Below the pieces are notes generated by a model. That model worked only from the letters and a program-made list of their open reading frames with translations, had not been told where the DNA came from and searched no databases. From Escherichia phage PNJ1902, in the sequence record OK254197.1: a DNA stretch of 64,000 nt. One strand, given 5' to 3'. A program made the position numbers and the translations under genes. Shown here one piece after another: positions 37,296 to 63,408 of the stretch (the first letter of the stretch is position 1; each line of letters begins with the position of its first letter).

Positions 37296-37325
37296 CTCCT
37301 CCAAACAGAATTTTTAAAAATGTAC

Positions 37326-37355
37326 TTGCCTTTTGCTTTAAATTTCTGATATAAT
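37326..37355 (+). promoter_or_regulatory. sigma70 promoter
   Basis: TTGCCT-18-TATAAT. Confidence 0.6.
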
Positions 37356-37385
37356 AGTTATATAAATTGATGAAGGAGTTAATGA

Positions 37386-37661: not shown

Positions 37662-37692
37662 CTAATACAGCACTGAGCAAGTTCTTTAAAAT

Positions 37693-37726
37693 TTGACTTG
37701 CTCAGTGCCTTAAAACTTGGTATAAT
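37693..37726 (+). promoter_or_regulatory. sigma70 promoter driving tRNA cluster
   Basis: TTGACT/TTGCTC-17-TATAAT. Confidence 0.65.
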
Positions 37727-37793
37727 AGTTATCTAATTTGGAAACATATTTAAAAGTGTTTAAATTAGAATTTTTTTGAATACTTCTAAATAT

Positions 37794-37881
37794 GGGGAAA
37801 TATTCTGTAAGTGGTAGCAGAGCTGACTGTAAATCAGTTGTCATTGCGACTCGGGTGGTTCGACTCCATCTTTCCCCACCA
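37794..37881 (+). tRNA. tRNA-Tyr (anticodon GUA), class II
   Basis: Acceptor GGGGAAA/TTTCCCC, loop CTGTAAA, ~15-nt variable arm, T-loop TTCGACT, CCA. Confidence 0.6.
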
Positions 37882-37887
37882 ATTTAA

Positions 37888-37964
37888 GTCCTGTTAGACA
37901 AACTGGTAAAGTCACTACCCTTTCAAGGTAGGATTTGCGGGTTCGATCCCCGCACAGGACGCCA
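37888..37964 (+). tRNA. tRNA-Glu (anticodon UUC)
   Basis: Acceptor GTCCTGT/ACAGGAC, anticodon stem CTACC/GGTAG loop CTTTCAA, T-arm GCGGG-TTCGATC-CCCGC, CCA. Confidence 0.65.
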
Positions 37965-37972
37965 ATTCCTGC

Positions 37973-38049
37973 ATTCCTAGAGTGTTACTGGACAGCATGT
38001 CGGTCTCCAAAACCGTACGGTCTAGGTTCGAGTCCTAGTAGGTTTGCCA
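37973..38049 (+). tRNA. tRNA-Trp (anticodon CCA), acceptor stem with two U-U mismatches
   Basis: Anticodon arm CGGTCTCCAAAACCG as in E. coli tRNA-Trp; T-arm CTAGG-TTCGAGT-CCTAG; acceptor ATTCCTA/TAGGTTT. Confidence 0.5.
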
Positions 38050-38055
38050 AAATTT

Positions 38056-38130
38056 GCACCTTTAGCTGAGATGGATTAGCGCTTGCCTGAAGAGCTTGAG
38101 AGGTTCGTTCGATACGAACAGGGTGCACCA
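38056..38130 (+). tRNA. tRNA-Phe (anticodon GAA), tentative
   Basis: Acceptor GCACCTT/AGGGTGC, loop CTGAAGA at canonical position, anticodon stem with two U-U mismatches, T-arm GTTCG-TTCGATA-CGAAC. Confidence 0.45.
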
Positions 38131-38147
38131 ATTTGAAGGAGCTGCTT

Positions 38148-38420
38148 ATGCATCCTGAAAACTTCTTTATTTACTGCGCGGATAAGTCGCTGAAACGTAG
38201 AATTAACAAAGTCTATCATTATCGTGCTAGTCAACAGCCTTATGTATACGCTTTTGACGGTGATCACATTCCATTAGAACAATTATCTTGTGATTACATG
38301 ATATTGAAGAACTTTGACGAGACAAAGATCTCAAGCGTTCACAATCGACAGAATCCATTAACGTGGAAATATAAGAAGAAAAAGAAAGGCATCAAATTCT
38401 TAAAAAATGTAGTTGCTTAG
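38148..38420 (+). CDS. Hypothetical protein
   Basis: ~90 aa from ATG 38148 with RBS AAGGAG (table start 38133 is TTG). Confidence 0.5.
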   Translation: MHPENFFIYCADKSLKRRINKVYHYRASQQPYVYAFDGDHIPLEQLSCDYMILKNFDETKISSVHNRQNPLTWKYKKKKKGIKFLKNVVA

Positions 38421-38441
38421 TTTCCAAAAGTTCTGTATAAT
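38413..38441 (+). promoter_or_regulatory. sigma70 promoter
   Basis: TTGCTT-17-TATAAT. Confidence 0.65.
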
Positions 38442-38489
38442 AATTACATAAATTGAACTGGAGAAGCAACATGATAGAATAAGATAAAT

Positions 38490-38565
38490 CGACCGTTGGC
38501 TGAATGGCTTAGGCGAAGGATTGCAAATCCTTTTTATGTGAGTTCAAATCTCATGCGGTCGTCCA
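38490..38565 (+). tRNA. tRNA-Cys (anticodon GCA)
   Basis: Acceptor CGACCGT/GCGGTCG, anticodon stem AAGGA/TCCTT loop TTGCAAA, T-loop TTCAAAT, CCA. Confidence 0.6.
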
Positions 38566-38717
38566 ATTTGCTGAAAGAATTGTTTTAACAATTCAGGCAC
38601 GCGTAGGAACACTGTCTCCGTAATTGAAAGATGAGGCACGGTTTGGAGAGGTATGCCGCTACACGCTACGGTGCTAACTCCGTCTAGGTGAAAATCCTAG
38701 TCAGCAATATAAATTTA

Positions 38718-38800
38718 GGGTCGTTAGCCAAGCGGTTTGGCGGTGGACTGTTAATCCATGTCGAAAGACAACGTAGGTTCGAATCCTACACGGCCCGCCA
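38718..38800 (+). tRNA. tRNA with class II architecture (13-nt variable arm, G73) but apparent GUU anticodon
   Basis: Acceptor GGGTCGT/ACGGCCC, 3-bp D stem, anticodon stem GTGGA/TCCAT loop CTGTTAA, variable hairpin GTC-GAAA-GAC, T-arm GTAGG-TTCGAAT-CCTAC. Confidence 0.4.
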
Positions 38801-38902
38801 AATTCTGTGTAGAGTTAAGTAAACCGGTAGCCAACCAGCTATCATTGCTGACATCGAATTCAGCCACAGATACCATTTTCATTAATAACTGAGGAAACAA
38901 GC

Positions 38903-39088
38903 ATGTCCAAGAATGTAATTGCGCAGCTAGAAGTTCATCGTGATAGCACTATCAACAATATTGAAGTTGAGAAGAAATACATCGAAGAACTTAAACATGA
39001 TATACTAGTAAGTCTTAATCGTCTTAATGTACGAAAAGAGTTTCTTAAGGAACTTAATGCAGCTATTGAAAAACTCAAAGCTGAGTAA
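38903..39088 (+). CDS. Hypothetical protein
   Basis: 61 aa ORF with RBS GAGGAAACAAGC. Confidence 0.45.
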   Translation: MSKNVIAQLEVHRDSTINNIEVEKKYIEELKHDILVSLNRLNVRKEFLKELNAAIEKLKAE

Positions 39089-39097
39089 ATGAATTAT

Positions 39098-39174
39098 GCG
39101 ACAGGGGCTGGCTTGGTAATGGTACTCCCCTGTCACGGGAGAGAATGTGGGTTCGAATCCCATCGGTCGCGCCA
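39098..39174 (+). tRNA. tRNA-Asp (anticodon GUC)
   Basis: Anticodon stem CTCCC/GGGAG loop CTGTCAC, T-arm GTGGG-TTCGAAT-CCCAT, CCA. Confidence 0.6.
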
Positions 39175-39200
39175 AATTAAACTAGCACGAGAAATATGCT

Positions 39201-39548
39201 ATGATTAATGCTAAAGAAGAGTTGTTACTTGCCCTAAAGAATACTAATTCTGAAGTTAAGTGTATTAAGATAGAATTCGGTTATTATGGAGACAAAGAAG
39301 TTTGGGTATTGCCCGTAGGTTATACAGAAAAAGATATTGAAGATTTTCTAAATAATCTAGACTTTAAATATGACTCGGGTTTCGGTGGACAATTGCTTTA
39401 TGGTAACGTATGGTTTACTGATGGAACTTGGTTAGAACGTGGTGAATATGATGGTTCTGAATGGTGGGAGTATAAGACTACACCAGCAATCCCTGAGGAA
39501 TGCCGAACAATTAATGGTGAAGTAGATAATACTTTACGGTTAAACTAA
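39201..39548 (+). CDS. Hypothetical protein
   Basis: 115 aa ORF. Confidence 0.55.
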   Translation: MINAKEELLLALKNTNSEVKCIKIEFGYYGDKEVWVLPVGYTEKDIEDFLNNLDFKYDSGFGGQLLYGNVWFTDGTWLERGEYDGSEWWEYKTTPAIPEECRTINGEVDNTLRLN

Positions 39549-39553
39549 TAAAA

Positions 39554-39660
39554 TTTCAGTGCAGAACACGGAGCTAGCAATTCGGAAGTGCTGACTCATG
39601 ATAAGCTGCCTATGTACTTGCGAAGCGGTCGTGTCCAAGACTCGGACTCTTGCACTGAAA
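39554..39660 (+). ncRNA. Hairpin-closed structured element (candidate small RNA)
   Basis: 10-bp terminal inverted repeat TTTCAGTGCA/TGCACTGAAA enclosing ~87 nt, no ORF. Confidence 0.3.
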
Positions 39661-39670
39661 ACAATCAAAC

Positions 39671-39791
39671 ATTCTAGCGTGGTTGATGGGGAAACCAGCT
39701 TGGCTAGGGCAGAAGCTCGTTCGATTCGAGTGAAAGAATGGTTCTCGTAAGTCCGCACAAGTGATAACAGGTTCGAGTCCTGTCTAGAATG
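39671..39791 (+). ncRNA. tRNA-like cloverleaf with ~48-nt insertion in the anticodon loop
   Basis: Perfect 7-bp acceptor ATTCTAG/CTAGAAT, D stem TGGT/ACCA, anticodon stem GCTTG/CAAGT enclosing 55 nt, T-arm ACAGG-TTCGAGT-CCTGT. Confidence 0.4.
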
Positions 39792-39806
39792 ACACTATAA
39801 AGTTTA

Positions 39807-39920
39807 CTTATTATGTAGGTTCCGATAGATCGGCGGGTCTATTCTGGCATTTAAGAGAGGTCTCGCAAACTTCTTTGTCAGCCGTGGGGTTGGTAGCCTC
39901 CAGGTGGCCTACACAATAAG
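39807..39920 (+). ncRNA. Hairpin-closed structured element (candidate small RNA)
   Basis: 13-bp inverted repeat CTTATTATGTAGG/CCTACACAATAAG (12/13 match) enclosing ~88 nt with internal CCGATAGATCGG hairpin. Confidence 0.3.
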
Positions 39921-39940
39921 TAAATTTATTAAAAATTCAT

Positions 39941-39969
39941 TTGCTATTCTGCTTAATTCTCTGTATAAT
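39941..39969 (+). promoter_or_regulatory. sigma70 promoter (T5 early type)
   Basis: TTGCTA-17-TATAAT. Confidence 0.7.
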
Positions 39970-40001
39970 ATATTTTATAAAGTGAAGAGAAGGAAAGCAA
40001 A

Positions 40002-40160
40002 ATGAAACACAAGATAGCTCAAGTTTTTATGGCATTATGGTGTATGCCAGTAGCTATAACAGCATTTAATCTAGATACTTTTACTATAGAAGAAAAATGT
40101 ATCGGGTTAGTTAGCGGCTTTAGTATGCTGGGCTTATCCTTGTTGTGGTTGAAGAAATAA
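40002..40160 (+). CDS. Small hydrophobic protein
   Basis: 52 aa ORF with RBS AGGAAAG, hydrophobic core; below table cutoff. Confidence 0.4.
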   Translation: MKHKIAQVFMALWCMPVAITAFNLDTFTIEEKCIGLVSGFSMLGLSLLWLKK

Positions 40161-40164
40161 TATT

Positions 40165-40242
40165 CTCCGTGTAGCTCAGTTTGGCCAGAGCGTTTCGTTT
40201 GGGGCGATAGGGTCGGGGGTTCAAATCCTCCCACGGAGACCA
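40165..40242 (+). tRNA. tRNA-Pro (anticodon UGG)
   Basis: Acceptor CTCCGTG/CACGGAG, D arm GCTC...GAGC, loop TTTGGGG, T-loop TTCAAAT, CCA. Confidence 0.55.
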
Positions 40243-40248
40243 AACAAT

Positions 40249-40326
40249 TGCGGGTTAGATCTCTGGTAGAGATCGCTAGTCTCATAAGCTAGAAAGAGGT
40301 AGGTTCGATTCCTGCACCCGCTTCCA
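40249..40326 (+). tRNA. tRNA with CAU anticodon and unpaired 1:72 (initiator-like), tentative
   Basis: Acceptor TGCGGGT/ACCCGCT with U1-U72 mismatch, D stem GATC/GATC, anticodon stem CTAGT/GCTAG loop CTCATAA, CCA. Confidence 0.5.
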
Positions 40327-40346
40327 TTTTAATAGAGGATTTCGAA

Positions 40347-40514
40347 ATGAAAGTATTTCGATTAGTAGTAAGTGACAAACGTTTAGGTAAGAATACATCA
40401 AAATCCTTAATCGCTCATTACGGTAAAAATTGGGATGAAGTAATGGCAGAGTTTAATACTAATCACCCTTACTTGAAAGTTCACTCTATTAAAGAAGTAT
40501 ACAATGGTTACTAA
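40347..40514 (+). CDS. Small hypothetical protein
   Basis: 55 aa ORF with RBS GAGGA; below table cutoff. Confidence 0.35.
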   Translation: MKVFRLVVSDKRLGKNTSKSLIAHYGKNWDEVMAEFNTNHPYLKVHSIKEVYNGY

Positions 40515-40515
40515 T

Positions 40516-40594
40516 AGATCGCTAGCTCAATAGGTTTAGTAGCATCCGACTTTTAATCGGAAGGTTCTGGGTTCGAGTCCCAGGCGATCTACCA
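40516..40594 (+). tRNA. tRNA-Lys (anticodon UUU)
   Basis: Acceptor AGATCGC/GCGATCT, anticodon stem TCCGA/TCGGA loop CTTTTAA, T-arm CTGGG-TTCGAGT-CCCAG, CCA. Confidence 0.6.
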
Positions 40595-40612
40595 ATTTCA
40601 AGAAAAACGCAG

Positions 40613-40641
40613 TTGCTTGATGCTTAATTTCTTGTTATAAT
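40613..40641 (+). promoter_or_regulatory. sigma70 promoter
   Basis: TTGCTT-17-TATAAT; followed by ~230 nt ORF-free transcribed spacer. Confidence 0.65.
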
Positions 40642-40879
40642 ATTTATATAAATTGATGAGGAGAGATCCTCATCATAGTTCACTAAGGTATTAGCTCGAC
40701 CTAGGACTGGCTGCCAAAAAGCACGATCCCTTCTACTTGGGAGAAGTTCTAGATTAGTCCACTAGATTCAGCGGCAACTGAATAGTGTATCGGGTTTGCG
40801 AGATGACGCAGTTCCTTCCGCTCGAAGCGAAGGTGCTGTAGTTACGCCGAGCTAATAGCCTTAGTAAACTAAAGATTTT

Positions 40880-40954
40880 GGGCGGTTAGTTTATCTGGGA
40901 AAATACCTGACTTGCACTCAGGAGTGAGGAGTTCGACTCTCCTACTGTCCACCA
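40880..40954 (+). tRNA. tRNA-Ala (anticodon UGC)
   Basis: Anticodon stem CCTGA/TCAGG loop CTTGCAC, T-arm AGGAG-TTCGACT-CTCCT, CCA. Confidence 0.6.
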
Positions 40955-40972
40955 AATTAAAGGGTATGTAGT

Positions 40973-41473
40973 ATGAAGGTAGCTAAAAATGGGAGAAAAG
41001 ATAACTTAAATGAGTTAGAAATATTCCTCCACAATAACAAACTAGACGTAACCGCTAGTAATTACATGCAAATAGCTCTATGGTATAATGGGTATATAGT
41101 TAGGAAGGCCAATCCTAGTAAGGATAAGAAGTCAAATACATACCAAAAGAGACTAGAGCATAGCTATCAAAGATCCCTAAGAGTAGTACAGCTTTATTGT
41201 TATATCAATAATATAAATAATAAGCTGGGATATATTTATATAATATCTAATCCAGCTTTTCCAGGCTGGTTTAAAGTAGGAGCAGCCAAAGATGCTGAGA
41301 CTAGATTAAATACCTATCAAACATACTCCCCTTTTCGGGACTATGTATTAGAGTATTATAAACTAGTAGATAATTATGAACTCAAAGAAAAAGAAATCCT
41401 AAGTTCTTTTTCATCTAGAAATAATGAGTGGGTTCATGCTCCACTTGAAGAAATAATTGCTTGCGTGGCGTAA
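40973..41473 (+). CDS. T5orf172-domain (GIY-YIG-like) protein
   Basis: 166 aa; GYIYIISNP...KVGAA...RLNTYQT motif; 3' end overlaps tRNA-Leu start by ~15 nt. Confidence 0.55.
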   Translation: MKVAKNGRKDNLNELEIFLHNNKLDVTASNYMQIALWYNGYIVRKANPSKDKKSNTYQKRLEHSYQRSLRVVQLYCYINNINNKLGYIYIISNPAFPGWFKVGAAKDAETRLNTYQTYSPFRDYVLEYYKLVDNYELKEKEILSSFSSRNNEWVHAPLEEIIACVA

Positions 41474-41541
41474 TTGGTAGACGCGCGATCCTTAGGAGTT
41501 CGTGTTAATTCGTGTGGGTTCGAGTCCCTCCGCAAGCACCA
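41459..41541 (+). tRNA. tRNA-Leu (anticodon UAG), class II
   Basis: Perfect acceptor GCTTGCG/CGCAAGC, Leu-type D arm, loop CTTAGGA, long variable arm, A73, CCA. Confidence 0.55.
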
Positions 41542-41653
41542 AATTTGATGGTCAGAGTAAATTAAACCTACTATCTCGGTTGAGCTGTTTTAATGGGTTC
41601 GAATCCCAGCGAGGCGTAACTGCCTGGTGTGATAGGGGCATCATCTTATTATT

Positions 41654-41744
41654 GGAAGAGCAAATCGAATTGGCGACGAAAACCGCTTGGAAAGTGGCTG
41701 ACTGGTAAAACGGCTTGAGAGTTCAAATCTCTCCTCTTCCGCCA
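41654..41744 (+). tRNA. tRNA-Ser (anticodon GGA), class II
   Basis: Acceptor GGAAGAG/CTCTTCC, loop TTGGAAA, ~18-nt variable arm, T-arm GAGAG-TTCAAAT-CTCTC, G73, CCA. Confidence 0.5.
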
Positions 41745-41757
41745 AACAATTTATATG

Positions 41758-41851
41758 GTAGGTCAATCCAACGGCTGGCGCTGGACTCCGACTTGAAATC
41801 GGTTGATCGTAGTGATACGGTGTAAGGGTTCGATCCCCTTACCTACCTCCA
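41758..41851 (+). tRNA. tRNA-Ser (anticodon UGA), class II
   Basis: Perfect acceptor GGTAGGT/ACCTACC, loop CTTGAAA, long variable arm, T-loop TTCGATC, CCA. Confidence 0.5.
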
Positions 41852-41856
41852 AATCT

Positions 41857-41988
41857 TGAAGTATGCCGGAATTGGTAGACGGGGCTGCCTAAAAGGTTTA
41901 TAGAGAACATCCACTCTCTACAACATACCTCATAAAGCGGCTGAGATAAATGGTCTATCTCGTGAAGGTTCAAGTCCTTCTGCTTCTT
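41857..41988 (+). ncRNA. Class II tRNA-like cloverleaf with ~41-nt insertion in the anticodon loop
   Basis: Acceptor TGAAGTA/TGCTTCT (6/7, U1-U72), U8-G9, Leu-type D arm, anticodon stem GCTGC/GCGGC enclosing 48 nt, variable hairpin GAGATA...TATCTC, T-arm GAAGG-TTCAAGT-CCTTC; no encoded CCA. Confidence 0.4.
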
Positions 41989-42102
41989 GATACATCTATG
42001 GCTCAAAGTGTAACGGTGCTATTTGATGCTCTTAGTAAGACTTCCCCGACATGCGTTCGGGAGTAAGCTGCTAAGGCTAGGGTAGAAGAGTTTCGGAGAG
42101 CC

Positions 42103-42222
42103 GCCACAATTGAAAATTCGTACTCGTCTTGAGCTGCGTGCAATAGGAGATAACTTGATTAGTATTCTAGAACATGCTAATTGAGGAAGGTTTCGCTAAC
42201 CCTGCGAGTTTTCAATTGTGGC
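42103..42222 (+). ncRNA. Hairpin-closed structured element abutting tRNA-His
   Basis: 14-bp perfect inverted repeat GCCACAATTGAAAA/TTTTCAATTGTGGC enclosing ~92 nt; right arm overlaps tRNA-His 5' end. Confidence 0.3.
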
Positions 42223-42294
42223 TATATCATAATTGGTTAATGATCCTGATTGTGAATCAGGCCTATGTGGATTCGAATTCCACTAGCCACCCCA
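42218..42294 (+). tRNA. tRNA-His (anticodon GUG)
   Basis: Perfect acceptor GTGGCTA/TAGCCAC, anticodon stem CCTGA/TCAGG loop TTGTGAA, T-arm GTGGA-TTCGAAT-TCCAC, C73, CCA. Confidence 0.6.
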
Positions 42295-42319
42295 AATTAA
42301 CTTAAATAGGAAATAAAAT

Positions 42320-42514
42320 ATGGCTGATTTCTGCAAACAATGCTCCATTGATATGTGGGGCAGAGATACTGGTGATCTTTCTGGTTTGATTACAGAAGCT
42401 GAAGTTAAAGAAGGCTACGGTGCTGTTGTGATTTGCGAGGGATGCGGAGTTATTCGAGTAGATCATGAAGGCAAACGTTTGGAAGAATCTGAGCCAACAA
42501 CAATTTTTCCGTAG
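42320..42514 (+). CDS. Cys-rich small protein
   Basis: 64 aa; CxxC...CxxC; RBS GGAAATAAAATATG. Confidence 0.5.
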   Translation: MADFCKQCSIDMWGRDTGDLSGLITEAEVKEGYGAVVICEGCGVIRVDHEGKRLEESEPTTIFP

Positions 42515-42526
42515 AATAAAAATTAT

Positions 42527-42602
42527 TGGGATGTAGATCAATTGGCAGATCGTCGGCCTCTGACTCCGAAGGTTCCACGTTCGATCCGTGGCATCCCAGC
42601 CA
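42527..42602 (+). tRNA. tRNA-Gln (anticodon CUG)
   Basis: Perfect acceptor TGGGATG/CATCCCA, D stem GATC/GATC, loop CTCTGAC, T-arm CCACG-TTCGATC-CGTGG, CCA. Confidence 0.6.
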
Positions 42603-42608
42603 AATAAT

Positions 42609-42684
42609 TGGAGAGTAGTGTAACGGTTAGCACAACGGCCTTTGACTCCGTTAATGGTAGGTTCGATTCCTCCTTCTCCAGCCA
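42609..42684 (+). tRNA. tRNA-Gln (anticodon UUG)
   Basis: Acceptor TGGAGAG/TTCTCCA, anticodon stem ACGGC/TCCGT loop CTTTGAC, T-loop TTCGATT, CCA. Confidence 0.55.
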
Positions 42685-42692
42685 AACAATAA

Positions 42693-42768
42693 GCGGTTAA
42701 GCACACGGGTTGTGCCGCAGGCCTTCCAAGCCTCGCTGAGTAGGGTTCGATTCCCTCTAGCCGCTCCA
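42693..42768 (+). tRNA. tRNA-Gly (anticodon UCC)
   Basis: Anticodon arm GGCCTTCCAAGCC as in E. coli tRNA-Gly(UCC), 3' end GCTCCA. Confidence 0.6.
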
Positions 42769-42784
42769 ACTTTAAGGAAACGTT

Positions 42785-43039
42785 ATGCACGTTTTTGAAT
42801 TTCGTAATAAAAGTACCGATAAACGAGTTATTGTTATTGGGGAAACATACCGAGCATACGAACAAACTGACGGCTCTGTTATCCTGAATGATGAGAAAGG
42901 AGGTTTTAGCTTTTATCCAGAAGAACCTTATGAAGAGTTTCGAAAACAATTTAACCTAGACTGGAGAAAGCATTTAAACACTGTTGCTTCATCTGTAATA
43001 CTGCCAACTACCAGTACTGAGTCCTCTAATGGCCGATAA
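42785..43039 (+). CDS. Hypothetical protein
   Basis: 84 aa ORF with RBS AAGGAAACG. Confidence 0.5.
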   Translation: MHVFEFRNKSTDKRVIVIGETYRAYEQTDGSVILNDEKGGFSFYPEEPYEEFRKQFNLDWRKHLNTVASSVILPTTSTESSNGR

Positions 43040-43193
43040 CCTAAAAGTAAAGATCGATAAACAAAAGAAACGTGTAGAAGTAGAGATTGGTGAAGAACGT
43101 GTAGCCTTCACCTTTGAATTTCTACAACAAATGGCAATGACAGTTATGACTGACAAGTCTCCTATTATTGAAAAAGAAATCCCGTTGGAATAA
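43029..43193 (+). CDS. Small hypothetical protein
   Basis: 54 aa ORF overlapping previous stop; below table cutoff. Confidence 0.35.
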   Translation: MADNLKVKIDKQKKRVEVEIGEERVAFTFEFLQQMAMTVMTDKSPIIEKEIPLE

Positions 43194-43201
43194 CGGGTTC
43201 T

Positions 43202-43288
43202 GCTGGGTTGGCAGAATGGTTGAATGCACCTGATTTGTAATCAGGAGGAGTAATCCCGTTGCAGGTTCGAATCCTGTGCCCAGCACCA
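43202..43288 (+). tRNA. tRNA with class II architecture (15-nt variable arm, A73) but apparent UGU anticodon
   Basis: Acceptor GCTGGGT/GCCCAGC, 3-bp D stem with 11-nt loop, anticodon stem CCTGA/TCAGG loop TTTGTAA, T-arm GCAGG-TTCGAAT-CCTGT, CCA. Confidence 0.4.
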
Positions 43289-43302
43289 ATTTAAGGATTA
43301 GT

Positions 43303-43470
43303 ATGTTTAAACTCCTAGTAGTTATCTGGTATAGCCAATCAAACAGAGCTAATACCTCTCACGTTATAGACTTTAATACTAAAAATGAAGCTGAAGAAGC
43401 ATATGCTAATTTAATACAACGTAATAAAGAATCTCGTAGTATAGTTTATGAAGTGACTAAACTTTATTAA
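43303..43470 (+). CDS. Hypothetical protein
   Basis: 55 aa from ATG 43303 with RBS AAGGA. Confidence 0.4.
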   Translation: MFKLLVVIWYSQSNRANTSHVIDFNTKNEAEEAYANLIQRNKESRSIVYEVTKLY

Positions 43471-43478
43471 AAATTCAT

Positions 43479-43507
43479 TTGCCTTCTCTCTTATTTCTTG
43501 TTATAAT
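43479..43507 (+). promoter_or_regulatory. sigma70 promoter (T5 early type)
   Basis: TTGCCT-17-TATAAT + ATAAATTAATGAGAGG leader. Confidence 0.65.
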
Positions 43508-43537
43508 ATTTATATAAATTAATGAGAGGGAAACCAA

Positions 43538-43831
43538 ATGAAACGTTATCTTTCTGTTATGTTCCAAACTGGTGGTCAACGCTATACTTATGAATTTCCT
43601 AGCTCTTGGAAGATCAAAGAAGGTGATCAAGTAGTAGTGTTAACACCGCGCGAGGGTTTCAAGGTAGTAACGGTTAAGCAAGTATTTCCAAAAGATCGTG
43701 AACCAGCTAAAGGCATTCGCTATAAGATGATTCATGGTGTAGTTCGTCAAGTACCACGAGCGGAAGTCGAAATCAAAGTAGATAAAGATGGTAAACTTAA
43801 ATATACCTCTTGCTTAGACGAGTTGCTATAA
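43538..43831 (+). CDS. Hypothetical protein
   Basis: 97 aa ORF. Confidence 0.55.
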   Translation: MKRYLSVMFQTGGQRYTYEFPSSWKIKEGDQVVVLTPREGFKVVTVKQVFPKDREPAKGIRYKMIHGVVRQVPRAEVEIKVDKDGKLKYTSCLDELL

Positions 43832-44037
43832 TGAGAATTACTTTCACAGAAAAGATTATGGGTAATGGTGTTATGATCATTACCGCATGGGATGGTAATC
43901 AGTGGTGTAGTGTTTCAGGTATTAAGCCTGAAGAACAAACACTAGAAAATATCTCAAAGATTAAGCGAAGAATGGCAGAACGTGCACGACTTCCAGGTGC
44001 GCCTAGAAATGGTAAACGTTCTGCAATTAAATATTAA
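43831..44037 (+). CDS. Hypothetical protein
   Basis: 68 aa from ATG 43831 (TAATG overlap). Confidence 0.45.
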   Translation: MRITFTEKIMGNGVMIITAWDGNQWCSVSGIKPEEQTLENISKIKRRMAERARLPGAPRNGKRSAIKY

Positions 44038-44038
44038 T

Positions 44039-44115
44039 GCTTCGGTAGCTTAGCGATCTAAAGCACTCGGCTGATAACCGAGAGATCGGGGGTTTAAATC
44101 CCTCCCGGAGTACCA
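44039..44115 (+). tRNA. tRNA-Ile (anticodon GAU)
   Basis: Acceptor GCTTCGG/CCGGAGT, anticodon stem CTCGG/CCGAG loop CTGATAA, unusual T-loop TTTAAAT, CCA. Confidence 0.55.
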
Positions 44116-44211
44116 AATTTAGGAATTAAGACTATGCGTCCAGGAAAGTTTAAAAAAGCTAATTGGTCTAAAGAGTATAAAGAATACTTACTTAGTCTAG
44201 TAAAACATAAC

Positions 44212-44287
44212 AGTTAGTTGGCAGAGTGGTTATGCACCTCCTTCATACGGAGCGACTACAGTGGTTCAAATCCACTACTAACTACCA
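44212..44287 (+). tRNA. tRNA with CAU anticodon (Met or Ile2)
   Basis: Perfect acceptor AGTTAGT/ACTAACT, loop TTCATAC, T-arm AGTGG-TTCAAAT-CCACT, CCA. Confidence 0.55.
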
Positions 44288-58041: not shown

Positions 58042-58245
58042 ATGCAAGTATATGTACTTACTAGAGATATAAATGAGTATAATCAGGATGGTGAATATTT
58101 TGTAAAGGTATTCGCTGAAAAGCCAAGTAAACAACAATTATTAGATGCTGGAGTACCAGAAGACCAGGCTAAGTGTATACTACAAGATAAAGAATTTACT
58201 GGTGATGCTTACGAATGTTTCTACCTTAGCTGTGAGAATATCTAA
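58042..58245 (+). CDS. Hypothetical protein
   Basis: 67 aa from ATG 58042. Confidence 0.45.
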   Translation: MQVYVLTRDINEYNQDGEYFVKVFAEKPSKQQLLDAGVPEDQAKCILQDKEFTGDAYECFYLSCENI

Positions 58246-58246
58246 T

Positions 58247-58693
58247 ATGAGAGAAAAAGTAAATGAATTACTAATCGAGGAAGCTAACAACTTTCCAATA
58301 AACAGGTTTATCAAATCGGATGGATCTATTAATAGAACTAAGATTAAGCAGCTACATCCTGACTTTCAACAAGAAGCACTAAACCTTATATTTATCAAGA
58401 AAGCTATTGCAGTTCATGGAGCTTTCTTTGGATATGAGCGTGTAAATTACAAAACAATGCAACAGCAAGTCGAGATCTATTGTCCAGATCATGATGGTTA
58501 TTACTGGCAAACTGCTAGATCTCATTTAGAAGGGCATGGTTGTCGACTGTGTGCACACAAGGTTGTGCAGCGTGTCACAGATTATGGAACCTATACCGTA
58601 CCAGCATGTTATCATAAATTTGTAGTTGACGATAATCATATAGTTTGGTATAATAAGTTTTCAAAGTTAAGAATGGAGATAAATAGTGAGTAG
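58247..58693 (+). CDS. Hypothetical protein, paralog of N-terminal half of 60714-61442
   Basis: ~148 aa; shared stretch KQLHPDFQQEALNLIFI...GYERVNYKT...QTARSHLEGHGC. Confidence 0.55.
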   Translation: MREKVNELLIEEANNFPINRFIKSDGSINRTKIKQLHPDFQQEALNLIFIKKAIAVHGAFFGYERVNYKTMQQQVEIYCPDHDGYYWQTARSHLEGHGCRLCAHKVVQRVTDYGTYTVPACYHKFVVDDNHIVWYNKFSKLRMEINSE

Positions 58694-59197: not shown

Positions 59198-59382
59198 TGG
59201 AAACTCTTTTTCTTTTAATGCTCGTAGGTTCTCTGTTACTAATACTAGCACTTCTACTAATCTGCAACATTCTTAACAACAAGAATCTAGAATTAAAGTG
59301 TGAGAACCAAATCCTTAATCGTGAACTTAAACAATATAACATCGCAGCCCATAAACTATTAGACAAACTGGAGAATAAATAA
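59197..59382 (+). CDS. Small membrane protein
   Basis: 61 aa; hydrophobic N-terminus. Confidence 0.4.
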   Translation: METLFLLMLVGSLLLILALLLICNILNNKNLELKCENQILNRELKQYNIAAHKLLDKLENK

Positions 59383-59996
59383 TGTTTACACAACAACCTA
59401 TTCAAGTAGTACCAGACCATGAACTGAACACATGGGATTATAGCTTTAAAGATTTAATTGCTACTGTACAATTCAAATCTATGAAGCTAACATTTGCACA
59501 CAATGACCTTAGAGCCTGTAAAGATCTTGAAAGTAAGCTCGAAGATGCTCGTAAGATTTTTGGCAAGGCTCGCATCCCAGCTGATAATCTAATTAACGCA
59601 TTAATCGATGCAGGGTACAAACTTGTGAAGACTGAGGTGAACCGCCCTAGTACTCCAGTGACTATTAGAGATCCGTGGCAGTCAGGGACAATCTCAATGC
59701 TGAATAACTCCGATAAAAGATTAATGTCGGATTTGCACAATGTTCCTTGTGGGGGTGTGGTAAGTAGTACGCAGTCATATAAGTTTGCGGAAGATTACGG
59801 CCCTTCTGTACAGTTGAAACATACTCAAGAAGCTTTTGAATCTGATATGCAAAGCGTAGCACCTGCGGATGCTGGAGTTTCTAGGAGTTCTGTTTGTACT
59901 ATTCATTTTAATAATCCTAGTAAACATGGAAGTTTAGAGGATGCTATTATGGAGGCGTTGGGAGCTGCTCTTAATGAAGATAAGAGAGGTAATTAA
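59382..59996 (+). CDS. Hypothetical protein
   Basis: 204 aa ORF. Confidence 0.55.
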   Translation: MFTQQPIQVVPDHELNTWDYSFKDLIATVQFKSMKLTFAHNDLRACKDLESKLEDARKIFGKARIPADNLINALIDAGYKLVKTEVNRPSTPVTIRDPWQSGTISMLNNSDKRLMSDLHNVPCGGVVSSTQSYKFAEDYGPSVQLKHTQEAFESDMQSVAPADAGVSRSSVCTIHFNNPSKHGSLEDAIMEALGAALNEDKRGN

Positions 59997-60721
59997 TGAG
60001 TATAAAAAAGAATTTAGCAGAGATTATTAAGTTAGCTAGAGCTTGTAATGGGAAATATGTTTCTCAGCTTAATGAACTAGAGGCACATGCAGTAGCATTT
60101 TGTGCAGAGTTTTATCCTGCATACCTTAATGCTAGTGGACAGCCCAAATATAATAAAGATGCAGGAGAAGTTACGTTAGCTCCTTCATATATTAGCTTGC
60201 GTCGTCTAATCCAAACTGTTGATCCTACTATTAAAGGATTCTCAGCAGATTCATTCCACGTCTTTGCAGATAAAGAACTCCCGTATTTTAAAGAAGGAAA
60301 TGCAAAGTCATGTTTAGAATGTTATCCAAATATTCTGATGATTCCTCAAAAGCAATGTAAATACGATCATCTTCCTAGACTTACAAAGAAAGTAGAACCA
60401 CCTTATTCTTCTCTATCTGAATTAAAGCTAGGAATTGTATCTACACTTGCGCAGGTTCATCTAAGTATAGTTGACGACTCAACAACATCTAATCCTATTC
60501 TAGATGCTGCACACTTTGAAATTTTACGTGATCCTGAACAAGCTAGAAAAGTTGCAAAGTCTGTTAAGTTTGATATATCAACAATTCTTGACACTAAACA
60601 AGAAACTAGACCTAGAGGAAGTGTAGATTATTCTGCACTAAATTCCGAGTCATCTTATTTAGCAACATTCCTTTTCATGGCGTCAAAAGGGGTTATTCTA
60701 AAGGTTAATAAAGATGGATGA
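59996..60721 (+). CDS. Hypothetical protein
   Basis: 241 aa ORF. Confidence 0.55.
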   Translation: MSIKKNLAEIIKLARACNGKYVSQLNELEAHAVAFCAEFYPAYLNASGQPKYNKDAGEVTLAPSYISLRRLIQTVDPTIKGFSADSFHVFADKELPYFKEGNAKSCLECYPNILMIPQKQCKYDHLPRLTKKVEPPYSSLSELKLGIVSTLAQVHLSIVDDSTTSNPILDAAHFEILRDPEQARKVAKSVKFDISTILDTKQETRPRGSVDYSALNSESSYLATFLFMASKGVILKVNKDG

Positions 60722-61442
60722 TTTACGTGCTGAAATTAATAAAAAGCTACGCGAGGAAGCCAGGAGGTTTCCTCTTAAAAACTTTTTGAAGTCAAATGGC
60801 TCTACTAATATAACGAAGATTAGGCAACTTCACCCTGACTTCCAACAAGAGGCCTTAAACCTTATCTTTATTAGGAAAGCTTTAAAAGTCCAGAAAGAAG
60901 AGTATGGGTATGAAAGAGTTAATTATAAGACAGCCAATCAGTTAGTAGAGATATGGTGCTATAAACACAAAGGATACTTTATGCAAACTGCTAGATCTCA
61001 CCTAGATGGGCACGGTTGTTTACAATGTGCTAGAGAAAGCAACCTCAATACACCTATCGAGAAACCGGAAGTAGAAGAAGATGTTCAGTTCCCCACATAT
61101 CTCTATATCTTCTCTAATAAAGATCAGTCTAGGAAGAAATTAAAGACAAAGATTGGGGTTTCTAGAGAGCCACATCAAAGGTTTAAGAATCTAGAGTATG
61201 ATAAATTACGTGTGCCGGGTTTTGAAGATATGGAAGTATTTGGTATCTACCAATATAAGAAAGGATCGAAAGAACTCGCTTACAAAATAGAACACCAAGC
61301 ACATAAATTTTTCGAGAATAAATTTGCTAATCATTATAAATTCGATGGAGCAAAAGAGATATTCAACATTAAAGCTGTAGAGGCAGAAGAATATCTATTA
61401 AGTCAAGGTTGCATAAAAATTTACCCAACTCCAAACTCATGA
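60714..61442 (+). CDS. Two-domain protein: N-terminal domain paralogous to 58247-58693 plus C-terminal T5orf172 (GIY-YIG-like) domain
   Basis: 242 aa; C-terminal YLYIFSN...KIGVSREP...RFKNL motif. Confidence 0.55.
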   Translation: MDDLRAEINKKLREEARRFPLKNFLKSNGSTNITKIRQLHPDFQQEALNLIFIRKALKVQKEEYGYERVNYKTANQLVEIWCYKHKGYFMQTARSHLDGHGCLQCARESNLNTPIEKPEVEEDVQFPTYLYIFSNKDQSRKKLKTKIGVSREPHQRFKNLEYDKLRVPGFEDMEVFGIYQYKKGSKELAYKIEHQAHKFFENKFANHYKFDGAKEIFNIKAVEAEEYLLSQGCIKIYPTPNS

Positions 61443-61469
61443 CAAAAATTTAAAAGTAACGAAATTTGC

Positions 61470-61499
61470 TTGACATTCGTGAGAATAATGTGTTATAAT
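61470..61499 (+). promoter_or_regulatory. Consensus sigma70 promoter firing into the repeat locus
   Basis: TTGACA-18-TATAAT, no ORF downstream. Confidence 0.55.
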
Positions 61500-61851
61500 A
61501 ATCTCATAGATTAAAAACATCAACTTGTTTTTACCTCTAGGCCGTAGATTTACATCATTCCTCGTAGGAAAACACTTGATGACGGTTCTGCTCGCAGGTT
61601 CTCGTCAATTGTTCTTCCACACCGAGACTTAGGAGGATGTATCAAATCGCACGCGCCTAGAGGGGCTAACTCTCATGAAATGGGGGTATATTTACTTTTA
61701 AATAACTAAAAATATTTAAAGGCAATATCTGTGTTCAAGATGATACACCGGTTGCCTCTCATCTGCTAGGATGGCACAACACTTTCTCCTAGACTCCTAA
61801 GTTTCTAGGAATAGTTGAACACTACCTCTAGCGTTTACACTAAACTTTAAA

Positions 61852-62587
61852 TCGGATTTGCACATGTTCTAGGGCAGTTTTTCACCTACTATAAATATCC
61901 TAGGCCGGTTTTCCTATACAGGGCGGTTATGGGGAGGGCGGTTATTTCTAGACAACATTTTTTGAAAACACATTTCTGGATTTTACTGTCGGATTTGCAC
62001 ATTGTGTTTCTAGAAATTTATGGTCGGATTTGCACAATTGCCTAAGTTTTTAGGAACATATAATCTCCTGAAAATGGCAGCATTATTTCGGGCCGAAGGC
62101 CCATGTTTGCCTGAGTTTTTGGAGCCACAGAAATTTTCACTTGTCAAACTATTTTGCCCCATTTTGCTAATAAAATTTTACTTTATCTCCTCTAATCTCA
62201 AATTAACCTAAATCTTCTCAACTCTTCCCCAAAATCCCCGCAAATCGGGTGCCCCGCACCAAACATGCGCCCCTCCAGTTTCTCCTCTTATTTTCTCTCG
62301 CTCTCTCATCTTCTCCCCAAACCCACACAATCACACACCCTCCAATCGAAGTCACAAAAATCTTGTCGGATTCGCACATCTTAATCCTAGAAAAACCATG
62401 TCGGATTTGCACATACCCCACAGGATTCGAACGCAGTTCGTGATTGCTGGAGTTTTTGGGAAAATTCATTGTCGGATTTGCACACTATAAAAATTTTTCG
62501 GGTCGGATTTGCACACTACCAAAAATTGTCGGATTCGCACATACACGCCCGCACGTAACACCCGTGGAGCAATGTCGGATTTGCACA
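61852..62587 (+). repeat. Array of 9 direct repeats GTCGGATT(T/C)GCACA
   Basis: Copies at 61852, 61988, 62023, 62365, 62400, 62471, 62502, 62528, 62574, all same orientation. Confidence 0.8.
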
Positions 62588-62616
62588 AAAGCGCAGGGCA
62601 ATTGCCCTGCGCTAAA

Positions 62617-62830
62617 ATACGAATGATAATAAGAATCATTCTCATTTAAAAAGCGGAATGAGAATGATAATAATTCGCATTTAGAAAGTGAAATGATAAT
62701 CATTATCATTTAAAAAGCGGAATGATTCTCATTTAAGAAGTGAAACGATTCTCATTTAAGAAGTGAAACGATTCTCATTTAGAAAGTGAAATGCAAATGA
62801 TAATGATTCTCATTTAAGAATGGAAGTGAG
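62617..62830 (+). repeat. Tandem ~22-bp repeats (GATTCTCATTTAAGAAGTGAAAC-like)
   Basis: At least 8 imperfect copies; two identical adjacent units around 62727-62772. Confidence 0.7.
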
Positions 62831-62847
62831 AAACACTATTATTTAAG

Positions 62848-62929
62848 TTATCCACAGACTTATCAACAGCACGATTTGACTTGACAAAATTCTAGCCGTT
62901 TTGAAGCGTTATCAACAGACTTATCCACA
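62848..62929 (+). promoter_or_regulatory. Cluster of four DnaA-box-like 9-mers
   Basis: TTATCCACA at 62848 and 62921; TTATCAACA at 62860 and 62909; same orientation. Confidence 0.55.
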
Positions 62930-63150
62930 GCTTATCCTACTGTATAAATATACAGTATTCCTACGCAGCGAATAATTCTAATATACCGCTAAAACGCTCT
63001 CAAACGCATTCTAACGCGTTTAATTTTGTTGGGGATACTAAAACAAGGGCAAAATTGGAGGAGGCTTGAAAATTAGTTAGCCCGCTAACGATCACACAAG
63101 GCGACACGTAACACCCTAACCATTAGCAGGCTAACCATCGCGGGCGCGGT

Positions 63151-63173
63151 CAAATGAGAATGATTCTCATTTG
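63151..63173. repeat. Perfect 23-bp palindrome
   Basis: CAAATGAGAAT-G-ATTCTCATTTG. Confidence 0.7.
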
Positions 63174-63213
63174 AGAATTGGGGGCACTTCCAGATAGTTG
63201 CGCCCCGTGATTA

Positions 63214-63408
63214 TTAGTCGGGTAGTCGATGCGTGATTTTTTCCTCCTCCCCATAGGAATCTACCAAATACTGATAATAACCATCGTGATCATAAATCAC
63301 TTTATCATAATCGCCACGCTCGACCGCTTGTCGGTTTTCCGGCGTATCGGGCACGTAAAAAATATCAACCATTGTACTAGTTTTGGTTACAACAATTTTA
63401 TTGCTCAT
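63214..63408 (-). CDS. Hypothetical protein
   Basis: 64 aa ORF beyond the repeat locus. Confidence 0.4.
   Translation of the reverse strand: MSNKIVVTKTSTMVDIFYVPDTPENRQAVERGDYDKVIYDHDGYYQYLVDSYGEEEKITHRLPD

What the first reader, a model, noticed from the sequence alone, without database searches (positions are those of the whole stretch)
61852..62587. Nine same-orientation copies of a 14-bp motif GTCGGATT(T/C)GCACA in an ORF-free locus
Iterated, spaced direct repeats are typical of protein-binding arrays such as iterons, partition sites or regulator titration sites. They lie just downstream of the last early gene and upstream of DnaA-box-like sites and tandem repeats. In T5 the first-step-transfer/injection-stop region at the edge of the terminal repeat is described as rich in repeats, palindromes and DnaA boxes, and this locus is a candidate for it.
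Basis: partly seen in the sequence, partly recalled or inferred. Interest (0 to 1): 0.75.

Follow-up and report, generated by a model that had tools for sequence, protein, structure and literature searches.

The report
T5 "DRD" repeats at terminal-repeat edge
This is the already catalogued "direct repeat D" array of phage T5 and its relatives: same-direction 14-bp sites straddling the inner edge of the long terminal repeat, next to the injection-stop region, with no known binding partner.

Summary
GTCGGATTYGCACA occurs 8 times exactly, plus one 1-mismatch copy, between 61851 and 62587. All copies are on the + strand, with 0 expected by chance. A tenth copy lies inside an ORF at 59726.

The window is a T5-like phage (Tequintavirus), reverse-complemented relative to the T5 map. 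The array is T5's annotated "direct repeat D copies 1-10" (GenBank AY587007.1), with the same order and nearly the same spacings. It is also the "nine DRD repeats" of Davison's Repeat Region 3.

New here:
- The repeat's physical end maps to window 62122, inside the array (3 copies outside, 6 inside).
- The split recurs in Pectobacterium phage My1, a 123-kb contig and Vibrio phage Athena.
- The motif and its single orientation persist where flanking DNA no longer aligns.
- It is absent from Proteus and Providencia T5-likes and from 100,044 bacterial genomes.

The conservation pattern does not fit a DnaA box. Function remains untested. The best guess is an array of sites for a phage DNA-binding protein acting in second-step DNA transfer (A2 the leading candidate). 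Terminase recognition of the right genome end is a close rival.

The parts
59726..59739 (+). DRD copy 10 (exact), embedded in the ORF 59382..59996 (T5.019 / ORF019 homolog)
   Evidence: T5 annotates the homologous copy in ORF019. The codons TCG-GAT-(TTG/ATG)-CAC show no synonymous change in 26/26 relatives, whereas 69% of comparable codons vary; half of the relatives carry a T>A change in the middle of the motif.
61851..61864 (+). DRD copy 9, degenerate (ATCGGATTTGCACA), outside the terminal repeat
   Evidence: The same A-for-G variant occurs in T5 copy 9. It is present in only some relatives (conservation 0.52).
61988..62001 (+). DRD copy 8, outside the terminal repeat
   Evidence: column conservation 0.99.
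62023..62036 (+). DRD copy 7, outside the terminal repeat, 35 bp after copy 8; ends 85 bp before the repeat edge
   Evidence: column conservation 1.00.
62077..62184 (.). Most conserved block of the locus. It spans the terminal-repeat edge, which is the right physical genome end (between 62121 and 62122: ...TGAGTTTTTG|GAGCCACAGAAATTTTCAC...), and includes the hairpin GGGCCGAAGGCCC at 62092-62104
   Evidence: The T5 right terminus (end of L043) and the SP01 record start (L044) both align from window 62122. Conservation is at least 0.97.
62150..62400 (+). C-rich, G-poor tract just inside the genome end, between the terminus and the six in-repeat copies
   Evidence: GC skew of -0.63 to -0.74.
62365..62378 (+). 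DRD copy 6 (C variant), the first copy inside the terminal repeat, 243 bp from the edge
   Evidence: The distance of 243-245 bp recurs in at least 7 independent records.
62400..62413 (+). DRD copy 5. Its position differs by exactly 10 bp between two groups of relatives (spacings 35/71 or 25/81)
62471..62484 (+). DRD copy 4
62502..62515 (+). DRD copy 3
62528..62541 (+). DRD copy 2 (C variant)
62574..62587 (+). DRD copy 1, the innermost copy, abutting palindrome J
62590..62613 (.). Palindrome AGCGCAGGGCAATTGCCCTGCGCT, equivalent to T5 palindrome J with the major 7.9% single-strand nick site
   Evidence: T5 annotation. AGCGCAGG follows the last DRD copy also in Serratia Kamaji and in contigs L011 and L030.
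62621..62793 (.). AT-rich tandem repeats (periods 23-35), equivalent to the T5 DRC/DRE region
62848..62929 (+). Two pairs of DnaA-type boxes, each pair 3 bp apart (TTATCCACA / TTATCAACA), equivalent to T5 IRC'-spacer-IRD', which the literature favours as the injection-stop core

Best explanation
The locus is the 'direct repeat D' (DRD) array of T5-like phages. It has ten same-orientation copies of aaa-N3-t-[G/A]TCGGAT[T/a][T/c]GCAC[A]-t. Six copies lie in the last 470 bp of the long terminal repeat. Three lie in the first 270 bp of unique DNA beyond it. One lies 2.1 kb further on, inside an early gene. The array sits beside the injection-stop core (palindrome J with the 7.9% nick, AT-rich tandem repeats, paired DnaA boxes).

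I propose that each copy is a binding site for one subunit of a sequence-specific, phage-encoded DNA-binding protein, with the subunits bound head to tail. The array would mark the DNA that is at or just behind the cell envelope when first-step transfer pauses. It would load that protein as the DNA emerges, helping to restart or ratchet second-step transfer. The essential pre-early DNA-binding protein A2, whose target is unknown, is the leading candidate.

What is shown: the identity with DRD, the position relative to the repeat edge, the strict single orientation, and motif-specific conservation at family depth.
What is inferred: that a protein binds, which protein it is, and which process is served.

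Rough confidences: identity with DRD 0.98; protein-binding array 0.75; role in DNA transfer 0.35.
For: Identity:
- T5's annotated DRD copies have the same sequence, order and spacing as the window's copies (137, 35, 342/344, 35/25, 71/81, 31, 26, 46).

Selection on the motif itself:
- All 25 Tequintavirus-like loci keep the array.
- Motif columns are more conserved than the rest of the locus (0.922 vs 0.868, Mann-Whitney p = 0.001).
- Every one of 45 IMG/VR loci with at least 3 copies has all copies on one strand.
- The motif survives where the flanks no longer align: Serratia Kamaji, Klebsiella Sugarlandvirus, Pectobacterium My1 and Vibrio Athena, whose A1 and A2 are 31% and 41% identical to T5's.
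- The information profile has sharp edges, with positions 2-7 and 10-13 nearly invariant.
- Copies can sit 17 bp apart, which fits a small protein footprint.
- No bacterial genome carries two adjacent copies.

Link to DNA transfer:
- The Moscow T5 record places 'iss' over the six in-repeat copies.
- The array starts 4 bp from the 7.9% nick, close to the FST shear point.
- The module order DRD, then tandem repeats, then DnaA boxes is kept from T5 to Vibrio phages.
- A2 is essential, binds DNA, is needed only for second-step transfer, and has no known target.
Against: - No binding experiment exists in the papers I could reach.
- If the 7.9% estimate is exact, the DRD copies are still outside the cytoplasm during the pause and out of A2's reach.
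- Proteus phage Stubb and Providencia PR1 have A1, A2, the long terminal repeat and the non-coding gap, but no DRD and no substitute repeat. DRD is therefore not indispensable, and A2 presence does not track it.
- The repeat end falls inside the array in four lineages. A pure transfer element would not need this.
- The whole non-coding block is fairly conserved (0.87), so the excess conservation of the motif among close relatives is modest.
Confidence: 0.35

Rival explanations
1. The array is a terminase recognition (pac/cos-like) site for making the right genome end. T5 always injects its left end first, so by the usual last-in-first-out rule (established knowledge) packaging should start at the right end, which is the repeat edge at window 62122. 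On this view the small terminase binds the same-orientation DRD copies on both sides of the cut. That sets the polarity of packaging, and perhaps also positions the adjacent 7.9%/99.5% nick.
For: - The physical terminus maps inside the array: 85 bp from the outer pair and 243 bp from the inner six.
- The 243-245 bp distance recurs in at least 7 records.
- The array is split by the repeat end also in My1 (6 in, 3 out; annotated repeat end 12854), in the 123-kb contig (6+6) and in Vibrio Athena.
- The other repeat edge has no such array, which fits a polar start site.
- The block around the cut is the most conserved part of the locus.
- T5 TerS is annotated 'probable sciB' (sci = single-chain interruption), and a major nick site abuts the last DRD copy across genera.
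Against: - Proteus and Providencia T5-likes have homologous TerS and a long terminal repeat but no DRD.
- In those phages the repeat end still lies in the same non-coding gap, so the 'split' may only reflect the array filling that gap.
- The nearest copies lie further from the cut than typical terminase sites do.
- The two T5 termini share no motif.
- The conserved 62077-62184 block could be the whole recognition site.
- Most deposited repeat ends are computational or copied from T5.
Confidence: 0.28
2. The copies are weak DnaA boxes. The 3' half ATTTGCACA is one mismatch from TTWTNCACA. The array would extend host DnaA binding outward from the four strong boxes at 62848-62929, strengthening a membrane-tethered DnaA-DNA complex (Davison's stop model).
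For: - The match is 8/9 (read directly from the sequence).
- The 3' half TTYGCACA is the deepest-conserved part. In Vibrio D25 the 5' half has diverged and one copy is a perfect box, TTTTGCACA.
- The array always lies beside paired consensus DnaA boxes.
- All copies share one orientation, as in the low-affinity arrays of oriC (established knowledge).
Against: - The conservation pattern does not match the box. The box's free position 5 is an invariant G, its T1 is an invariant A, and its critical T4 varies T/C.
- The 5' TCGG, which lies outside any DnaA box, is nearly invariant from T5 to Athena.
- Athena's copies end in GCACC and My1's in GCACT.
- Spacings of 17-137 bp differ from the tight spacing in oriC.
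- PR1 and Stubb keep their DnaA boxes without DRD.
Confidence: 0.1
3. The copies are iterons of a replication origin or copy-control locus. DnaA boxes, AT-rich repeats and direct repeats together form the layout of iteron-type origins, and a phage initiator would bind DRD.
For: - The module order DnaA boxes, AT-rich tandem repeats, same-orientation repeats is present and is conserved to Vibrio phages.
- The arrangement in two clusters resembles origin plus control iteron sets (established knowledge).
Against: - According to Davison's summary, electron microscopy places the T5 origins near the genome centre, and the replication genes arrive only with second-step DNA.
- The spacing is irregular, with no two-turn periodicity.
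- No initiator gene is adjacent: the flanking ORFs have unknown function or encode a homing endonuclease.
- The array is absent in two genera that replicate nonetheless.
Confidence: 0.07
4. The motif acts in RNA. A transcript from the consensus promoter at 61470-61499 would carry GUCGGAUUUGCACA repeats, for example as a sponge for an RNA-binding protein that recognises GGA.
For: - A perfect extended sigma-70 promoter faces the array.
- Its consensus hexamers recur in 9/25 relatives with different spacer sequences.
Against: - No Rfam family reaches threshold.
- The possible UGU...ACA stem is not maintained: G1>A is common and is never compensated at the invariant C13.
- Six of the nine copies lie beyond a conserved hairpin and the repeat edge, more than 850 nt from the promoter.
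- In distant phages the array persists, but I did not see the promoter there.
Confidence: 0.03

Closest known systems
Phage T5 'direct repeat D' copies 1-10 (GenBank AY587007.1; the 'nine DRD repeats' of Repeat Region 3 in Davison, bioRxiv 10.1101/866236)
   Same: Same motif, same ten copies, same degenerate copy 9, and the same 6 + 3 + 1 distribution relative to the left terminal repeat end and ORF019. Spacings are nearly identical, and the neighbours are the same: palindrome J with the 7.9% nick, the DRC/DRE repeats, and the IRC'/IRD' DnaA boxes.
   Different: About 85% DNA identity to T5 across the locus. Copy 5 is shifted by 10 bp (35/71 instead of 25/81). A homing-endonuclease ORF lengthens the distance to copy 10 (2125 vs 1676 bp).
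Phage P1 pac site (clusters of a short repeated element on both sides of the terminase cut) and lambda cosB (terminase R sites beside cosN)
   Same: Repeated short sites arranged asymmetrically on both sides of a sequence-specific genome-end cut. Here the end maps between 3 outer and 6 inner copies. The comparison rests on established knowledge of P1 and lambda.
   Different: The DRD sites are 14 bp long, spread over about 740 bp, and lie 85-243 bp from the cut. No terminase binding has been shown. The phage makes 10-kb direct terminal repeats, not cohesive or headful ends. Two related genera lack the sites.
Phage T7 short-repeat arrays (SRL/SRR) flanking its 160-bp terminal repeat
   Same: Arrays of short direct repeats next to the edge of a direct terminal repeat in a phage that cuts concatemers at fixed ends (established knowledge).
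   Different: T7 has arrays at both repeat edges, on the unique side only. T5-likes have one array, at one edge, lying across it.
Plasmid and phage iterons (for example P1 oriR/incA, F oriS/incC)
   Same: Same-orientation repeats in two clusters, next to AT-rich repeats and DnaA boxes.
   Different: The DRD copies are shorter and irregularly spaced. There is no adjacent initiator gene, and published origin mapping places T5 origins elsewhere.
DnaA boxes (TTWTNCACA)
   Same: The 3' nine bases match 8/9, the copies share one orientation, and true DnaA boxes lie nearby.
   Different: The conservation pattern contradicts the degeneracy of the box, and the invariant 5' TCGG lies outside it.

Membership tests
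T5 direct repeat D (DRD) array of Tequintavirus Repeat Region 3 | Repeat unit TGTGC(A/G)AATCCGAC(A) on the T5 top strand | tested here: met
   All ten annotated T5 copies, reverse-complemented, read [G/A]TCGGATT[T/C]GCACA.
T5 direct repeat D (DRD) array of Tequintavirus Repeat Region 3 | Copy number, order and spacing: six in the left terminal repeat, three just beyond it, one in ORF019 | tested here: met
   Window spacings 2125, 137, 35, 342, 35, 71, 31, 26, 46 against T5 spacings 1676, 137, 35, 344, 25, 81, 31, 26, 46. The repeat end lies at window 62122.
T5 direct repeat D (DRD) array of Tequintavirus Repeat Region 3 | Neighbours: palindrome J with the 7.9% nick site, DRC/DRE tandem repeats, IRC'/IRD' with paired DnaA boxes | tested here: met
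   Palindrome at 62590-62613, tandem repeats at 62621-62793, box pairs at 62848/62860 and 62909/62921.
Injection stop signal (iss) of T5 | Lies in the non-coding end of the left terminal repeat, at about 7.9-8.3% of the genome | tested here: met
   The AY543070 'iss' feature 9140-10149 covers the homologs of copies 1-6.
Injection stop signal (iss) of T5 | Lies to the left of the FST shear point (about 9618 in AY587007) | tested here: not met
   DRD copies 1-9 lie at 9672-10409, to the right of the estimate. The estimate is approximate, so this is not decisive.
Injection stop signal (iss) of T5 | Cis-acting arrest of DNA transfer | not testable with these tools
   Needs phage genetics and blender or qPCR entry assays.
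Terminase recognition site (pac/cos type) | Lies beside the sequence-specific cut that makes a genome end | tested here: met
   The terminus at 62121|62122 lies between copies 7 and 6. The same holds in My1, the 123-kb contig and Athena.
Terminase recognition site (pac/cos type) | Bound by the small terminase and required for packaging | not testable with these tools
   A phyletic test was uninformative: TerS homologs occur in both DRD-positive and DRD-negative genera.
DnaA box | Nine-mer matching TTWTNCACA | tested here: not met
   ATTTGCACA matches 8/9 and ATTCGCACA 7/9. Only the four sites at 62848-62929 fit the consensus or the TTATCAACA variant.
DnaA box | Conservation follows the degeneracy of the box | tested here: not met
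   Box position 5 (N) is an invariant G, position 1 is an invariant A, and position 4 varies T/C. The flanking TCGG is invariant.
Iterons of an iteron-type origin | Regularly phased direct repeats beside an initiator gene, DnaA box and AT-rich region | tested here: inconclusive
   DnaA boxes and an AT-rich region are present. The spacing is irregular. The flanking ORFs show no initiator signature.

The most novel reading that the evidence does not exclude
DRD is the specific recognition element of one conserved phage protein (A2 or the small terminase/sciB) across most Demerecviridae. The nucleoprotein complex it builds across the right edge of the terminal repeat would be the missing cis-acting partner either for restarting second-step DNA transfer or for polar initiation of packaging. 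Loss of the array in the Proteus and Providencia lineages would mark a change in that mechanism.
Probability: 0.3. Interest if true: 0.6.

Novelty: already known. Interest (0 to 1): 0.3.

Why it matters
How T5 stops and restarts DNA entry has been unexplained for more than 50 years. The essential DNA-binding protein A2 still has no known target. The DRD array is a catalogued part of that region to which no function has been assigned.

- The 14-bp motif and its orientation survive from E. coli phages to Vibrio phages.
- The genome end always falls inside the array.
- Two genera manage without the array.

It can now be used as a probe for A2 and terminase binding assays and as a target for repeat-scrambling mutants. 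As a discovery, however, the finding itself is not new.

Tried and rejected
- RNA family search of 61300-63300. Nothing came near threshold; the best match was PrrF at 38 bits against a gathering score of 90, in the AT-rich repeats.
- RNA hairpin or GGA-sponge idea. Rejected because the only possible stem is not maintained by compensatory change.
- DnaA-box reading. Rejected as the main explanation because of the conservation pattern.
- A shared cut-site motif at the two T5 termini. None of 9 bp or more was found.
- Phyletic tests. A2 and TerS are both present in the DRD-negative Proteus phages, so neither presence pattern identifies the binder. An apparent lack of TerS in Proteus when Athena's TerS was the query was a sensitivity artefact, corrected with a T5-type query.
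- A2 fold clues. No Pfam family and no solved structure matched. Structure prediction was not possible because A2 is not encoded in the window.
- Substitute repeats in DRD-negative phages. None above chance in Stubb. PR1 has only an unrelated 8-bp tandem array.
- Scan of 100,044 bacterial and archaeal genomes for two adjacent copies. No hits, so there is no satellite or host counterpart.
- Literature. A full-text search for the motif string found nothing. Davison 2015 could not be read; Wang 2005 and Heusterspreute 1987 are not in open-access PubMed Central and were not looked up. Their statements about DRD are therefore known to me only through the GenBank record and the 2020 preprint.

Full report
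OBSERVATION. The motif GTCGGATTYGCACA has nine exact matches in the window, all on the + strand, where shuffles give none. Eight of them lie in the reported interval: 61988, 62023, 62365, 62400, 62471, 62502, 62528 and 62574. The ninth copy of the locus is a one-mismatch version, ATCGGATTTGCACA, at 61851. The remaining exact match is a tenth copy at 59726, inside the 204-aa ORF 59382..59996. An unbiased 11-mer search of the non-coding gap 61443-63213 returns this motif as the dominant repeat: 9 copies and none on the other strand, against at most 3 copies for any word in shuffles. The last early ORF ends at 61442. AT-rich tandem repeats lie at 62621-62793. Two pairs of DnaA-type boxes lie at 62848/62860 and 62909/62921.

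WHAT GENOME THIS IS. The locus matches 456 phage records, almost all Salmonella or Escherichia T5-like phages. The best matches are 94-95% identical and T5 itself is about 85% identical. The window also carries a cluster of 21 tRNA genes, as T5 does. The window is the reverse complement of the conventional T5 map: early genes run rightward into the locus, and pre-early genes of the terminal repeat run leftward into it.

IT IS ALREADY ANNOTATED. The Hangzhou T5 record AY587007.1 carries features named 'direct repeat D copy 1' to 'copy 10'. Six are in the left terminal repeat (9672-9895), three just beyond its end at 10139 (10225-10409), and one in ORF019 (12073-12086). Read on the other strand, these are the same 14-mer, including the A-for-G variant in copy 9. 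The spacings nearly coincide with the window's: 137, 35, 342/344, 35/25, 71/81, 31, 26 and 46. The Moscow record AY543070.1 annotates 'injection stop signal (iss)' at 9140-10149, which covers the six in-repeat copies, and a major nick next to them. [quoted passage not shown] It then discusses the stop signal only in terms of the neighbouring IRD'-spacer-IRC' inverted repeat with its DnaA boxes and the DRE repeats. It places the approximate shear point (9618) to the left of the DRD copies and admits that its model 'assigns no role' to most of the repeats.

POSITION RELATIVE TO THE GENOME END. The last bases of the T5 record (its right physical terminus) and the first bases of the SP01 record both align starting at window 62122 (...TGAGTTTTTG|GAGCCACAG...). 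Three copies therefore lie outside the repeat, the nearest ending 85 bp from the edge. Six lie inside, the nearest starting 243 bp in. The 243-245 bp distance recurs at the contig ends of at least seven independent records. The stretch around the edge (62077-62184) is the most conserved part of the locus. The 250 bp just inside the edge are extremely C-rich on the + strand. The other edge of the T5 repeat sits in a 40-bp intergenic gap with no repeat array, and the two termini share no motif.

COMPARATIVE EVIDENCE. All 25 T5-like loci retrieved through the ORF that holds copy 10 carry the array on one strand: a pair 35 bp apart, a gap of about 340-380 bp, then five or six copies. In an alignment of these loci (70-96% identical to the window), motif columns are more conserved than the rest (0.922 against 0.868, p = 0.001). 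The whole block is conserved, however, so this is a modest effect. The embedded copy shows no synonymous change in its codons in 26 sequences, while 69% of comparable codons vary; half of the phages carry a T>A change in mid-motif, so this is only suggestive.

The stronger evidence comes from distance. In Serratia phage Kamaji, a Klebsiella Sugarlandvirus, Pectobacterium phage My1 and a 123-kb contig, the flanks no longer align with the window. The motif persists there in clusters, always on one strand. In My1, six copies lie inside the annotated left repeat (which ends at 12854) and three lie 246-430 bp beyond it. Vibrio phage Athena has A1 and A2 proteins only 31% and 41% identical to T5's. 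It has AATCGGATTTGCACCT-type copies at the start of its repeat, three at or before the deposited repeat start and five or six after. These are followed by 15-bp tandem repeats and two GTTATCCACAAC boxes, the same module order as in T5. A second Vibrio clade (D25) has a diverged version that keeps only the 3' half (TTYGCACAT), again followed by AT-rich tandem repeats and DnaA boxes. By contrast, Proteus phage Stubb and Providencia phage PR1 have A1, A2, a long terminal repeat ending in a non-coding gap, and DnaA boxes. They have no DRD and no substitute repeat above chance. No representative bacterial or archaeal genome holds two adjacent copies.

WHAT THE MOTIF LOOKS LIKE. Across lineages the profile is aaa-N3-t-[G/A]TCGGAT[T/a][T/c]GCAC[A/t/c]-t, with sharp edges and with positions 2-7 and 10-13 almost invariant. 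Copies can sit 17 bp apart (My1 and contig L010). In the window's relatives, one copy is displaced by exactly 10 bp between two groups. The 3' nine bases are one mismatch from a DnaA box, but the pattern of conservation contradicts the box. Its free position is an invariant G here, its first T is an invariant A, its critical fourth T varies T/C, and the invariant TCGG lies outside it. The asymmetric unit, the strict single orientation and the small footprint fit head-to-tail binding of a small sequence-specific protein. That is an inference.

MECHANISM. I rank two processes closely.

(a) DNA transfer. The array begins 4 bp from the 7.9% nick, beside the module that the literature favours as the stop signal. 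It is the DNA at or just behind the envelope during the pause, and the first to enter on restart. A2 is an essential DNA-binding protein without a known target. Binding of A2 (or A1-A2) to successive sites as they emerge could restart or ratchet entry.

(b) Packaging. T5 always injects its left end first, so by the usual last-in-first-out rule (established knowledge) packaging should begin at the right end, which maps inside the array in four lineages. Same-orientation sites on both sides of a cut resemble P1 pac or lambda cosB. T5's TerS is annotated 'probable sciB', and a major nick site abuts the last copy in distant genera.

Neither is shown. Stubb and PR1 argue that the array is dispensable for both processes, and the presence of A2 and TerS in those phages means that presence patterns do not identify the binder. 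I give the transfer role 0.35, the packaging role 0.28, weak DnaA boxes 0.10, iterons 0.07 and an RNA-level role 0.03. The remainder is for something not considered.

VERDICT. Interest is moderate to low as a discovery. It is useful as a concrete, testable handle on the unsolved T5 two-step transfer and end-formation problem.

Noticed in passing
window 61470-61499 (+): Perfect extended sigma-70 promoter (TTGACA, 18 nt, TGT-TATAAT) immediately after the last early ORF, reading into the non-coding locus toward the DRD array. Perfect hexamers recur in 9 of 25 relatives with three different spacer sequences, which suggests selection. No ORF longer than 35 aa follows, and a weak terminator-like site lies at 61669-61687. 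It may drive a small non-coding RNA.
   Followed up: partly
window 62150-62400: The first ~250 bp inside the right genome end are extremely C-rich and G-poor on the + strand (GC skew -0.63 to -0.74). This is a strong strand asymmetry between the terminus and the six in-repeat DRD copies.
   Followed up: partly
window 62077-62184: This is the most conserved block of the whole non-coding region. It spans the terminal-repeat edge (62121|62122) and includes a GC hairpin, GGGCCGAAGGCCC, 18 bp outside it. It is a candidate for the actual terminase cut-site signal.
   Followed up: partly
window 61920-61946: A short tandem repeat, AGGGCGGTTAT-GGGG-AGGGCGGTTAT, just outside the terminal repeat and between DRD copies 9 and 8. 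It is at least 97% conserved among 25 relatives and is not among the features annotated in the T5 stretch I read.
   Followed up: no
window 62590-62613; also L152, L011, L030: The palindrome AGCGCAGGGCAATTGCCCTGCGCT (T5 palindrome J, site of the major 7.9% nick) directly follows the innermost DRD copy. The AGCGCAGG junction is kept even in Serratia phage Kamaji and other distant contigs.
   Followed up: partly
window 62365-62484 versus relatives (L125-L149, T5): DRD copy 5 occupies one of two positions exactly 10 bp apart (spacings 35/71 or 25/81) in different relatives. The sum of the two spacings, and so roughly the helical phase, is preserved.
   Followed up: no
window 60714-61442 and 58145-58693: The last early ORF is a T5orf172/GIY-YIG-type homing endonuclease. 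Its N-terminal ~90 residues are paralogous to ORF 58145-58693. Such mobile genes explain why the distance from copy 10 to the array varies between phages.
   Followed up: partly
T5 record AY692264.1 99895-100374 (seen): The small terminase subunit of T5 is annotated 'probable sciB protein'. The sci loci affect the single-chain interruptions, which hints that nicking is coupled to packaging.
   Followed up: no
L159 9615-9690 (Providencia PR1); L160 3965-4197 (Vibrio D25); L156 290-379 (Vibrio Athena): Every T5-like lineage examined except Proteus Stubb (one box at 11277, no tandem array detected) has a block of short tandem repeats next to paired DnaA boxes near the repeat edge, but the repeat unit differs completely between lineages: 8-bp CGTCTRRA in PR1, AT-rich 8/32-bp units in D25, 15-bp units in Athena, and 23-35-bp units in the window. 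The module is conserved but its sequence is not.
   Followed up: partly
window 32549-44287: A cluster of 21 tRNA genes, all on the + strand, as expected for a T5-like early region.
   Followed up: no
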